Source of the DNA: Candidatus Binataceae bacterium
Lineage (GTDB): Bacteria > Desulfobacterota > Binatia > Binatales > Binataceae
Direction of reading: 5' to 3'
DNA: 24,000 nucleotides
NCBI GenBank assembly: GCA_052146355.1
Contig: JBKQNE010000082.1
Coordinates: forward strand, 1 to 24,000
Shown here piece by piece: positions 11,942-13,084 of this stretch. The notes below the pieces were generated by a model. It did not search any database and was not told where the DNA came from. It was given only the letters and a program-made list of their open reading frames with translations. Each line of letters opens with the position of its first letter. The stretch's first letter is position 1. The translations under genes were made by a program, and so were the position numbers.

Positions 11942-13084
11942 ATGCGCGCGGTGAGCGCACTCGCGCGCGCAGCTCTCGCCTGCTTGCTCTTATCTGCGCT
12001 CGCGCCGCCCGCGTGGGCGCATCGCTTCGGCGGTCCGAACGATCCATGCGAGCGTAAGATCGGCCGCTCGCTGATTCACATCACCCTCTTTCAGCCCGAG
12101 TTCGATCCCGATGCCGAGTACTGCGACGACATCCCGCGCGAGGGGAACACGGTGCTGGTGGTGGATACGTTCGGCGACAATCTGCGCACCGTGCCCATCG
12201 GCGTTCAAATCCTGTCGGTCGGTGAAAGCGGCGCACAGCAACTCGTGCTCTCGATTCCGCCCGCAATCTATCGGCGCGGCGTGGTCGATACGCAGGTGAT
12301 GCTCGCCGCCGGCAGCCGCTATGTCGCCCGCGTGTCCGTCGCCGATGGCGCGGCGCAACCCCTGGTATTTTCGTTTCCCATTCTGGTCCGCGCGTGGTAT
12401 CGGGCTTGGATTGTTCCATTGCTGATGGTGCTCGGCGTGTTGGCTATCGTGGCCATATCGATCGCTCGCTACTATCGACTCTCAGCGCGTCGCCGCTTCC
12501 GGCGAGCGCGCGCCACCCGCTACGCGTGCGTCGCGTTTGCGGCGCTGGCGCTATCGTTCGCCGCGGGATGCAATCGTAATTCCGCGCCCTCCTCCGCCGC
12601 GCTCCCCGATGTTCAGCTCATCGATGCTCACGGGCAGCCCGTGGCGCTGGCCTCGCTCAAAGGCAAGGTCGTTCTAATCGATTTCATCCATATCGGCTGT
12701 CCGGGAGTATGCGCCAACCTGACCAACAAGTTCGGTCAAATCGCCGATGTGATCGGTCCCGAACTCGGCTCCAAAGTAGTGCTCGTGTCCGTCACGAACG
12801 ATCCCGAGCACGATCGCCCGGAGGCACTCCTGAAGCTCGCGCGCGGCATGCAGGCCGATATGCATGGATGGCTCTTTCTTACCGGCACACCGCAGGATGT
12901 CGGCCGGGTAATCGCGGCTTTTGGGGTTGATAACCGGCGGTTGCCCGATGGTTCCCCCAATCACATCACGCGCGTGTTCATGCTCGGCCCCGACCTGCGT
13001 GAGCAGCATGAGTACCCGGGTATGGCGATGAATTCGCGGGCGGTCGCATCGGAGTTGATGAACCAGGCGGGAGGCGCTTCTTAA
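11942..13084 (+). CDS. fusion protein: N-terminal exported domain of unknown family + two TM helices + SCO1/SenC copper chaperone domain
   Basis: The signal peptide ends AWA, giving a predicted mature N-terminus HRFGG. A domain of about 125 aa contains C36 and C61. TM1 is WIVPLLMVLGVLAIVAISI, followed by an Arg-rich loop and TM2 with a lipobox-like LSFAAGC. The Sco domain has C253-PGV-C257, DPEHDRPEAL and the distal His in NHITRVFMLGPD. Confidence 0.8.
   Translation: MRAVSALARAALACLLLSALAPPAWAHRFGGPNDPCERKIGRSLIHITLFQPEFDPDAEYCDDIPREGNTVLVVDTFGDNLRTVPIGVQILSVGESGAQQLVLSIPPAIYRRGVVDTQVMLAAGSRYVARVSVADGAAQPLVFSFPILVRAWYRAWIVPLLMVLGVLAIVAISIARYYRLSARRRFRRARATRYACVAFAALALSFAAGCNRNSAPSSAALPDVQLIDAHGQPVALASLKGKVVLIDFIHIGCPGVCANLTNKFGQIADVIGPELGSKVVLVSVTNDPEHDRPEALLKLARGMQADMHGWLFLTGTPQDVGRVIAAFGVDNRRLPDGSPNHITRVFMLGPDLREQHEYPGMAMNSRAVASELMNQAGGAS

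What the first reader, a model, noticed from the sequence alone, without database searches (positions are those of the whole stretch)
11942..13084. Sco1/SenC copper chaperone fused to an unassigned periplasmic domain, directly upstream of pmoC
Seen directly: a normal Sco domain (C253-x3-C257 plus a distal His in NHITRVF) is preceded by its own lipobox-like anchor (LSFAAGC). Upstream of that, in the same ORF, there is a cleavable signal peptide, a Cys-containing domain of about 125 aa (C36, C61) and a TM helix. The positive-inside loop RLSARRRFRRARATRY places both soluble domains in the periplasm. This looks like a gene fusion of a single-pass anchored periplasmic protein with a Sco lipoprotein. 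The N-domain architecture (beta-rich periplasmic domain plus C-terminal TM helix, next to pmoCAB) is reminiscent of PmoD/AmoD-type copper proteins, and it contains C36-x7-L-x-H46. I cannot establish homology by eye. Inference: it may be a dedicated two-module copper delivery device for the monooxygenase.
Basis: partly seen in the sequence, partly recalled or inferred. Interest (0 to 1): 0.65.

Follow-up and report, generated by a model that had tools for sequence, protein, structure and literature searches.

The report
PmoD–Sco copper-protein fusion before pmoCAB
This gene joins two known periplasmic copper-handling modules, a PmoD/AmoD-type domain and a Sco1 chaperone, into one membrane-anchored protein at the head of a copper monooxygenase operon in uncultured Binatia soil bacteria, which hints that the poorly understood PmoD works together with a copper chaperone.

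Summary
ORF 11942-13084 (380 aa) is intact. At least 120 full-length homologue clusters (49-88% identity) occur in Binatia/Binataceae metagenome genomes, always directly upstream of pmoC-pmoA-x-pmoB.

- **C-terminal half.** It is a bona fide Sco1/SenC domain. C253, C257 and H341 align with the Cu ligands of B. subtilis Sco.
- **N-terminal half.** It has no Pfam or NCBIfam hit but is homologous to PmoD (PDB 6CPD: phmmer 5e-9, profile 3e-14, Foldseek TM 0.79). It has the signal peptide, the two invariant Cys (C36, C61) and the C-terminal TM helix of the family. It belongs to the Cx9HxnC subclass, with Leu in place of the CuA Met, which binds copper but does not form CuA.
- **Origin.** Sister Binatia lineages carry pmoD and sco as separate adjacent genes (4-bp overlap or 8-bp gap), or pmoD alone. 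The ORF is therefore a true gene fusion.
- **Linker.** The second hydrophobic segment is a preserved lipoprotein signal peptide. Its Cys is invariant (120/120) and 105/118 members match the lipobox pattern, so the protein may be cleaved into two parts.

The role in copper supply or thiol reduction for the monooxygenase is inferred, not shown. I rate it a new variant of known kinds, of moderate interest.

The parts
11942..12019 (+). Sec-type signal peptide (residues 1-26), predicted cleavage A24-W-A26 | H27
   Evidence: Hydrophobic N-terminus (KD peak 11-15). The AxA|H pattern is conserved in fused and standalone homologues. H27 is invariant.
12020..12397 (+). PmoD/AmoD-family cupredoxin-like periplasmic domain (residues 27-152), Cx9HxnC subclass. 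Key codons: H27 12020-12022, C36 12047-12049, H46 12077-12079, C61 12122-12124.
   Evidence: 6CPD PmoD phmmer 5e-9, profile 3e-14, Foldseek 3.3e-10 with TMt 0.79. The model is all-beta with pLDDT around 90. H27, C36, H46 and C61 are invariant.
12398..12475 (+). TM helix 1 (about residues 153-178), the C-terminal anchor of the PmoD module
   Evidence: KD 19-residue window up to 2.87 at 160-171. AF2 helix 157-182. W152-Y153 is invariant. Standalone PmoD-like proteins end shortly after this helix.
12476..12523 (+). Arg-rich cytoplasmic loop (residues 179-194), equivalent to the n-region of the former Sco lipoprotein signal peptide
   Evidence: In the family, the 15 residues before the h-region carry a net charge of +3 to +6. 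Sequence and length are poorly conserved.
12524..12571 (+). Second hydrophobic segment plus lipobox (residues 195-210, ...LSFAAG|C210). This is an internal lipoprotein-type signal peptide, or TM helix 2.
   Evidence: C210 is invariant in 120/120. The -1 residue is G/A/S in nearly all members (one search list). 105/118 members match the PROSITE PS51257 core. It aligns with the lipobox of standalone Sco genes (TIAAC in L006, LTAAC in L030).
12572..13084 (+). Sco1/SenC thioredoxin-fold domain (residues 211-380) plus stop codon. Cu ligand codons: C253 12698-12700, C257 12710-12712, H341 12962-12964.
   Evidence: Pfam PF02630 E 1.5e-19. Foldseek hits 4hde, 6n5u and 4wbj with TMt about 0.85. Ligands align with BsSco C45/C49/H135 and are invariant in the family.
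13104..16356 (+). Downstream CuMMO genes: pmoC 13104-13943, pmoA 13971-14756, small conserved membrane protein X about 14762-15091, pmoB 15088-16356
   Evidence: Pfam AmoC, AMO and Monooxygenase_B. Metal ligands are conserved: PmoB H33 and H137-x-H139; PmoC D142/H146/H159 and N216/H220/H234. X is conserved in related loci. Gaps are -4 to 27 nt.
9268..11923 (+). Conserved upstream genes on the same strand: cytochrome c (9268-9780), Gluconate_2-dh3-like small subunit (9787-10344), GMC FAD oxidoreductase (10355-11923)
   Evidence: Pfam. The same order is seen in L001, L002, L006 and L030. Gaps are 6-18 nt and no terminator-like site lies between the genes.

Best explanation
**What it is.** The ORF encodes a two-module periplasmic copper-handling protein that belongs to the Binatia copper membrane monooxygenase (CuMMO) operon. 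It arose by fusion of adjacent pmoD and sco genes.

**Shown here:**
- Residues 27-152 are a PmoD/AmoD-family cupredoxin-like domain of the Cx9HxnC subclass, followed by its own TM anchor.
- Residues 211-380 are a Sco1/SenC domain with an intact CxxxC...H copper site.
- The linker is an Arg-rich loop plus a preserved lipoprotein signal peptide.

**Inferred pathway:**
1. Sec export and signal peptidase I cleavage expose His27 as the mature N-terminus.
2. TM1 stops transfer. The positive loop stays in the cytoplasm and the second hydrophobic segment re-exports the Sco domain, so both soluble domains face the periplasm.
3. Cys210 is probably lipidated. The chain may be cut there by signal peptidase II, giving equimolar, co-localised PmoD and Sco lipoprotein.
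4. The Sco module keeps the PmoD Cys pair (C36/C61) reduced and/or hands Cu(I) to the PmoD Cys/His site. This would parallel Sco acting on the cupredoxin CuA domain of cytochrome oxidase subunit II.
5. The pair then supplies or maintains copper in PmoB/PmoC of the co-transcribed monooxygenase.
For: **Homology**
- PmoD 6CPD is the only PDB sequence hit for the N-domain (5e-9; profile 3e-14) and also a Foldseek hit.
- The Sco assignment rests on Pfam, structural matches and ligand alignment.

**Conservation**
- H27, C36, H46, C61, C210, C253, C257 and H341 are invariant across 58-120 homologues at 49-88% identity.

**Fusion origin**
- Adjacent or overlapping separate pmoD and sco genes occur in three sister clades. 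Other lineages have pmoD alone, always just upstream of pmoC.

**Operon**
- Eight co-directional genes have gaps of -4 to 27 nt, and no terminator-like site lies between the genes.
- The position between the GMC dehydrogenase and pmoC is conserved in every locus examined.
- The monooxygenase keeps all canonical Cu ligands.

**Lipobox**
- 105/118 members match the PROSITE core. The h-region is mostly 13-20 residues and the n-region charge is +3 to +6.

**Literature**
- PmoD Cys41-Cys65 form a disulfide in the crystal, and DTT reduction preceded copper loading.
- Cx9HxnC-class PmoDs bind Cu without forming CuA.
- Disruption of pmoD gives a copper-dependent growth defect (all PMC6189053).

**Parallel case**
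- One PmoD~CopC fusion lies between pmoB and copD in an unrelated contig.
Against: - No experiment or expression data exist for any member, so copper binding, topology and processing are all inferred.
- The Sco module could equally serve cytochrome oxidase.
- Some Binatia operons manage with pmoD alone (L031, L032, L008), so Sco is not obligatory next to this CuMMO.
- The substrate of these Binatia CuMMOs is unknown. They sit among hydrocarbon monooxygenases in trees (bioRxiv 10.64898/2026.02.02.703227).
- The NJ tree of the N-domain does not resolve whether fusion happened once or several times.
- No model coordinates or inter-domain confidence were available, so contact between the two domains is untested.
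Confidence: 0.65

Rival explanations
1. The Sco module acts only as a thiol-disulfide reductase (TlpA/Sco-like) that keeps the two PmoD cysteines reduced. It does not carry copper itself.
For: - Sco has a thioredoxin fold, and TlpA/ResA structures also match the model.
- Weak Redoxin and AhpC-TSA Pfam hits and a TlpA NCBIfam hit were found.
- The PmoD cysteines form a disulfide in 6CPD (PMC6189053).
Against: - The copper-ligand His341 is invariant along with the CxxxC. A pure reductase would not need it.
- This overlaps with the best explanation rather than excluding it.
Confidence: 0.2
2. The Sco module is the cell's general cytochrome c oxidase CuA assembly factor. It merely sits in, and became fused within, the CuMMO operon, with no specific link to PmoD or the monooxygenase.
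For: - The canonical role of Sco1/SenC is CuA assembly (Pfam family description; PMC6669012 listed).
- Some related operons lack Sco.
Against: - The position between pmoD and pmoC is conserved across lineages down to about 50% identity, both fused and split.
- No cox genes are in the window or in the loci inspected.
- Fusion to PmoD has persisted in more than 100 clusters.
Confidence: 0.1
3. The PmoD module is a CuA-type electron-transfer partner of the monooxygenase, and Sco is its CuA assembly factor.
For: - Operon-encoded PmoD of Methylocystis forms a CuA-like site, and Sco assembles CuA in oxidases (PMC6189053; PMC6669012, listed).
Against: - The Met ligand (Met49 in PmoD) is Leu in 108/118 homologues and Met in only 1.
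- Fisher et al. found that CuA formation is confined to Cx7MxHxnC proteins and is lost in the M49A variant.
Confidence: 0.08
4. The long ORF is an artefact: a sequencing frameshift or missed stop that merges two ordinary genes.
For: - Split versions exist in relatives.
- Some long-read contigs of this family show broken genes (L003, L009, L029).
Against: - At least 120 clusters from JGI, ENA, NCBI and Logan assemblies are fused in one frame with variable linker lengths.
- The closest relative (88% identity) is fused on an 838-kb contig.
Confidence: 0.01

Closest known systems
PmoD/AmoD family (Methylocystis sp. Rockwell PmoD, PDB 6CPD; Fisher et al. 2018, PMC6189053)
   Same: It shares the signal peptide, the cupredoxin-like periplasmic domain, the two invariant Cys, the His ten residues after the first Cys, the C-terminal TM helix, and a gene next to a CuMMO operon.
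   Different: - Met49, the CuA axial ligand, is Leu here, so this is the Cx9HxnC subclass.
- The gene lies upstream of pmoC rather than downstream of pmoB.
- The host is Binatia, and the CuMMO is not a verified methane or ammonia oxidiser.
- It is fused to Sco. Fisher et al. list copC/copCD, PCuAC, multicopper oxidases and ABC transporters as neighbours but not Sco, and a search of that paper for 'Sco' found no mention of the protein.
Sco1/SenC copper chaperones (B. subtilis Sco 1XZO, B. anthracis lipoprotein 4HDE, B. japonicum ScoI 4WBJ/4TXO)
   Same: It has the thioredoxin fold, the CxxxC plus distal His copper site, and a lipoprotein-type or TM membrane tether on the periplasmic side.
   Different: - Its signal peptide is internal, preceded by a whole PmoD module.
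- It sits in a CuMMO operon rather than near cox genes.
- The motif is GCPGVC rather than the common CPD(I/V)CP (the canonical motif is recalled from memory, not tested here).
Extended alphaproteobacterial pmo operons (pmoCAB-pmoD-copC-copD-PCuAC) and the single PmoD~CopC fusion found here (P0310/L034)
   Same: PmoD is encoded beside a periplasmic copper chaperone. In L034 it is fused to that chaperone through the same arrangement of TM helix, loop and signal-peptide-like segment.
   Different: - The chaperone is CopC rather than Sco.
- The fusion was seen on only one low-coverage 2.6-kb contig, so it could be an assembly error.
Polyproteins cleaved at an internal signal peptide (Bradyrhizobium japonicum FbcH cytochrome b-c1 precursor; recalled from memory, not checked here)
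   Same: One ORF encodes two membrane or periplasmic partners separated by an internal signal peptide.
   Different: There the cleavage is by signal peptidase I and is shown experimentally. Here the site is a lipobox (signal peptidase II) and cleavage is only inferred.

Membership tests
Sco1/SenC (PF02630) | Profile match above the curated threshold | tested here: met
   70.7 bits against a cutoff of 22.8, residues 225-351
Sco1/SenC (PF02630) | CxxxC motif and distal His that ligate copper | tested here: met
   C253, C257 and H341 align with BsSco C45, C49 and H135 and are invariant in the family
Sco1/SenC (PF02630) | Thioredoxin-like fold matching solved Sco structures | tested here: met
   Foldseek 4hde, 6n5u, 4wbj and 1xzo: E 5e-13 to 1e-11, TMt 0.79-0.86
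Sco1/SenC (PF02630) | Binds Cu and matures a cupredoxin-type copper centre | not testable with these tools
   Needs biochemistry
PmoD/AmoD (Fisher et al. 2018) | Sequence and fold homology to the PmoD periplasmic domain | tested here: met
   6cpd phmmer 5e-9, profile 3e-14 as the only hit, Foldseek 3.3e-10 with TMt 0.79
PmoD/AmoD (Fisher et al. 2018) | Two strictly conserved cysteines (Cys41 and Cys65 of 6CPD) | tested here: met
   C36 and C61 align with them. They are present in all 118 homologues that cover these columns.
PmoD/AmoD (Fisher et al. 2018) | N-terminal signal peptide and C-terminal TM helix | tested here: met
   Hydropathy and AF2 helices. AxA|H site. No dedicated signal-peptide predictor was available.
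PmoD/AmoD (Fisher et al. 2018) | Encoded in a genome, or next to an operon, with a CuMMO | tested here: met
   19 nt upstream of pmoC. The same position holds in all related loci that extend far enough to show pmoC.
CuA-forming PmoD subclass (Cx7MxHxnC) | Met at position +8 after the first Cys (Met49) | tested here: not met
   Leu44 here. In the family: Leu 108, Phe 5, Val 2, Met 1. It is therefore assigned to the Cx9HxnC subclass.
Bacterial lipoprotein signal peptide (PROSITE PS51257 pattern) | Lipobox core {DERK}(6)-[LIVMFWSTAG](2)-[LIVMFYSTAGCQ]-[AGS]-C preceded by a basic n-region | tested here: met
   105/118 fused homologues match at the Cys aligned with C210. The n-region charge is +3 to +6.
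Bacterial lipoprotein signal peptide (PROSITE PS51257 pattern) | Lipobox Cys within about 35 residues of the protein N-terminus | tested here: not met
   The Cys is at residue 210, behind a complete PmoD module. Whether Lgt and LspA act on it is unknown.

The most novel reading that the evidence does not exclude
The ORF is a natural two-signal-peptide polyprotein. After hairpin insertion, the internal lipoprotein signal peptide is recognised by Lgt and LspA, Cys210 is lipidated and the chain is cut. This would release a Sco lipoprotein and leave a two-helix-anchored PmoD in 1:1 amounts at the same membrane site. The fusion would then act as Rosetta-stone evidence that PmoD, whose function has been open since 2018, is a client or partner of a Sco-type metallochaperone in loading copper into CuMMOs, rather than an electron carrier.
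Probability: 0.35. Interest if true: 0.7.

Novelty: new variant of a known kind. Interest (0 to 1): 0.5.

Why it matters
PmoD/AmoD is the accessory protein most tightly linked to copper membrane monooxygenases. A 2026 review (PMC13058606) still lists its role as unresolved: electron donor, copper supplier or stabiliser.

- **Genetic link.** A fusion of PmoD to a Sco chaperone is conserved in more than 100 sequence clusters, with split forms in sister lineages. This ties PmoD to copper trafficking or thiol chemistry and suggests concrete experiments, such as Sco-to-PmoD copper or electron transfer.
- **Annotation gap.** The PmoD half is invisible to Pfam and NCBIfam, so these proteins are filed only as 'SCO family protein'. 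pmoD counts in Binatia may therefore be underestimates: 5 of 11 genomes in PMC8262859.
- **Biogenesis question.** An internal lipobox that remains under selection is a testable oddity for lipoprotein biogenesis.

Tried and rejected
- Pfam and NCBIfam scans gave nothing for the N-domain or for a standalone homologue. Homology came only from the PDB sequence and fold searches.
- The exact-sequence lookup of the window protein found no contig. The source was inferred from the 88%-identical relative.
- Literature searches for PmoD with Sco1, 'fused' or Binatia found no description of this fusion. The library lacks most subscription-journal papers, so prior mention cannot be excluded.
- The first tree script timed out. 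The NJ tree that did run has no support values and does not decide between one or several fusion or fission events, so I draw no conclusion on direction beyond the existence of both states.
- The promoter scan found no sigma-70-like site in 8400-17000, and the only terminator-like sites lie inside genes. This is uninformative for an uncultured phylum.
- A PDB sequence search with small protein X found nothing.
- The frameshift-artefact rival was rejected. The CuA electron-carrier reading was judged unlikely.
- Model coordinates and PAE were not available, so the distances between H27, C36, H46 and C61 and any PmoD-Sco domain contact could not be checked.

Full report
**1. Observation**

The ORF 11942..13084 (+) is real: 380 codons, ATG start, TAA stop. 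It lies 18 nt after a GMC-family FAD oxidoreductase gene. It lies 19 nt before a PmoC/AmoC gene that has a GAGGA ribosome-binding site.

- a hydrophobic N-terminus ending A-W-A|H27;
- a beta-rich domain carrying C36, H46 and C61;
- a strongly hydrophobic helix (Kyte-Doolittle maximum 2.87 around residues 160-171; AlphaFold helix 157-182);
- the loop RLSARRRFRRARATRY;
- a second helix (190-208) ending FAAG-C210;
- a Sco domain with C253-PGV-C257 and H341.

**2. Not an artefact**

A search of 5.8 billion proteins returned at least 120 clusters of full-length homologues. They are 370-412 aa long, 49-88% identical, and come from JGI, ENA, NCBI and Logan assemblies. All are annotated at most as 'SCO family protein'.

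In 20 of the related loci I fetched, the PmoD-like and Sco parts are in the same frame with no stop between them. Named sources are Candidatus Binatus, Binataceae and 'delta proteobacterium' MAGs. A scan of GTDB species genomes found 20 loci, all of this kind apart from one MAG labelled Verrucomicrobiae. The closest relative (88% identity) sits on an 838-kb contig with the same gene order.

**3. The C-terminal half is a normal Sco**

- Pfam SCO1-SenC scores 70.7 bits against a cutoff of 22.8.
- The AlphaFold model has mean pLDDT 85.5 and both soluble domains are at about 90.
- The model matches Sco structures 4HDE, 6N5U, 4WBJ and 1XZO at TM 0.79-0.86.
- In the phmmer alignment to B. subtilis Sco, C253, C257 and H341 fall on the copper ligands C45, C49 and H135.
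- All three residues are invariant in the family.

**4. The N-terminal half is a PmoD/AmoD domain**

Pfam and NCBIfam see nothing here. A PDB sequence search finds PmoD of Methylocystis sp. Rockwell (6CPD) at E 5e-9. A profile built from 32 homologues finds it as the only hit, at 3e-14. Foldseek also finds 6CPD (3.3e-10, TM 0.79).

C36 and C61 align with the two 'strictly conserved' cysteines Cys41 and Cys65, and H46 aligns with His51. With the signal peptide, the C-terminal TM helix and the adjacency to a CuMMO operon, every family-defining feature described by Fisher et al. 2018 (PMC6189053) is met.

The CuA ligand Met49 is Leu44 here. Across the 118 family members covering that column it is Leu 108, Phe 5, Val 2 and Met 1. 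The domain therefore belongs to the Cx9HxnC subclass. Fisher et al. found that this subclass binds copper but does not form the CuA centre.

An exhaustive profile search of 1.84 billion representatives gave 536 relatives at E up to 1e-3. Most of the top 150 are 180-220 aa, the usual PmoD/AmoD size. Only one of the top 150 (P0110) is a Sco fusion.

**5. It is a true gene fusion**

Close standalone homologues of the N-domain exist at 50-70% identity and 170-223 aa. Their contexts show four arrangements upstream of pmoC-pmoA-x-pmoB.

| Arrangement | Loci |
|---|---|
| Fused pmoD~sco | window and most loci |
| Separate pmoD and sco, ATGA overlap | L006, L007, L025, L026; same 4-bp overlap in L030 |
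| Separate pmoD and sco, 8-bp gap | L033 |
| pmoD alone | L031, L032, L008 |

The separate Sco genes start with a classical lipoprotein signal peptide: ...TIAAC in L006 and ...LTAAC in L030. Its Cys corresponds to C210 of the fusion.

A rough NJ tree of the N-domain does not place all fused forms in one clade. It has no support values, so I leave open the number and direction of fusion events.

**6. The linker**

Across the fused family the linker varies in sequence and length. The Cys aligned with C210 is nevertheless invariant (120/120), and the residue before it is G, A or S in nearly all members. 105 of 118 members match the PROSITE lipobox core. The uncharged stretch before the Cys is mostly 13-20 residues, and the 15 residues before that carry a net charge of +3 to +6.

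This is what an active lipoprotein signal peptide looks like, except that it is internal. Its orientation (N-in, C-out) is the same as that of a normal signal peptide. I infer that Cys210 is lipidated and that the chain may be cleaved there. This is inference only.

One parallel was found. P0310 (L034) is a PmoD fused through the same TM-loop-hydrophobic arrangement to a CopC domain. That CopC domain begins exactly at ...AQA|H and lies between pmoB and copD. Canonical CopC uses the free amino group of its first His to bind copper (my recollection, not tested here), which would require internal cleavage. This is a single low-coverage contig and should be treated with caution.

**7. Context**

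Eight co-directional genes run from 9268 to 16356 with gaps of -4 to 27 nt and no terminator-like site between them. In order they are:
1. cytochrome c
2. a Gluconate_2-dh3-like small subunit
3. GMC FAD oxidoreductase
4. PmoD~Sco
5. PmoC
6. PmoA
7. small protein X
8. PmoB

The order is conserved in relatives.

The monooxygenase subunits fall below NCBIfam's equivalog thresholds. They keep all canonical copper ligands: PmoB H33 at the mature N-terminus and H137-x-H139; PmoC D142/H146/H159 and N216/H220/H234.

Published work places Binatia pmoA-like genes among hydrocarbon monooxygenases, with unproven substrate (PMC8262859; bioRxiv 10.64898/2026.02.02.703227). Murphy et al. noted the CAxB gene order and 'pmoD' in 5 of 11 Binatota genomes, but no Sco fusion.

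**8. Mechanism**

Shown: the two domains, their ligand residues, the fusion origin and the operon position.

Inferred: both domains are periplasmic and tethered to the inner membrane. The Sco module reduces the C36/C61 pair and/or delivers Cu(I) to the PmoD Cys/His site. The pair then serves copper loading or maintenance of PmoB/PmoC.

The analogy is Sco (with TlpA) acting on the cupredoxin CuA domain of cytochrome oxidase subunit II. Structures of that pathway are among the model's matches (4TXO, 4TXV). In vitro, PmoD's two cysteines formed a disulfide in the crystal, and the protein was reduced with DTT before copper was added.

Rivals considered were a reductase-only Sco, a housekeeping oxidase Sco, a CuA electron carrier and an assembly artefact. 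They are weighed in the rival list. The last two are disfavoured by the Leu44 substitution and.

**9. Novelty and score**

Both domains are known families. The combination, its conservation across Binatia and the internal lipobox are not described in the literature I could search. The 2026 AMO review still treats the role of PmoD as open.

I rate this a new variant of a known kind, interest 0.5. It is a useful genetic clue to an open question and an annotation gap. It is not a new kind of system, and its function remains unproven.

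Noticed in passing
window 14762-15091 (+) (ORF listing gives a GTG start at 14723): A small conserved gene lies between pmoA and pmoB, the 'x' of the CAxB order. It has a signal peptide ...ASIASA|HGGMAGPDELGRPL, one TM helix (...VCYWVVILWP) and a basic tail. 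tblastn finds it between pmoA and pmoB in all 27 related loci that extend that far, with a near-invariant HGG(M)AGP(D/E)ELG motif. It has no Pfam or PDB hit. It could be a supernumerary CuMMO subunit or a copper-binding peptide, comparable to the unassigned helix seen in pMMO/AMO structures (PMC13058606).
   Followed up: partly
window 12020 (H27), 14846 (His after ASA in protein X), 15184 (PmoB H33); also P0224-P0367: Three products of this operon have a predicted mature N-terminal His after an AxA cleavage site: PmoD domain AWA|HRFGG, protein X ASA|HGGMAG and PmoB AFA|HGEAG. Among 110 PmoD-superfamily representatives with an intact N-terminus, at least 87 have AxA|H 6-13 residues before the first Cys, and most of the remainder also show ...A|HG. 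The published PmoD constructs carried an extra vector-derived Ser-Met at the N-terminus (PMC6189053). A possible His-brace-like contribution of the native N-terminus would therefore not have been seen.
   Followed up: partly
window 9268-11923 (+): A conserved trio lies directly upstream, in the same apparent operon: cytochrome c, a Gluconate_2-dh3-like small subunit and a GMC FAD oxidoreductase. It resembles three-subunit membrane-associated flavoprotein dehydrogenases and may oxidise the alcohol product of the monooxygenase.
   Followed up: partly
L034 829-1716 (protein P0310): A PmoD~CopC fusion (CopC Pfam 200-293, E 3.3e-16) lies between pmoB and copD on a 2.6-kb metagenome contig with coverage about 5.8. 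It has the same TM-loop-signal-like linker, and the CopC domain starts right after AQA|H. It is a single contig and could be an assembly frameshift.
   Followed up: partly
window 12572-12574 (residue 211) and homologues: The residue after the lipobox Cys is His in 65 of 118 fused homologues (Asn in the window) and in the standalone Sco of L006 (AAC|HREM). The mature Sco would often start Cys-His. The significance is unknown.
   Followed up: no
L031 10290-12053; L023: In the pmoD-only operon L031 a multicopper oxidase follows pmoB. One fused locus (L023) comes from a MAG labelled Verrucomicrobiae, which may be mis-binned since every other locus is Binatia-type.
   Followed up: no
window 5409-7628 (-), 16442-16867 (-), 17698-18858 (-): Unrelated neighbours: a GH5 cellulase with two CBM2 domains, a MAPEG-family membrane protein just downstream of pmoB on the opposite strand, and a luciferase-like monooxygenase.
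   Followed up: no
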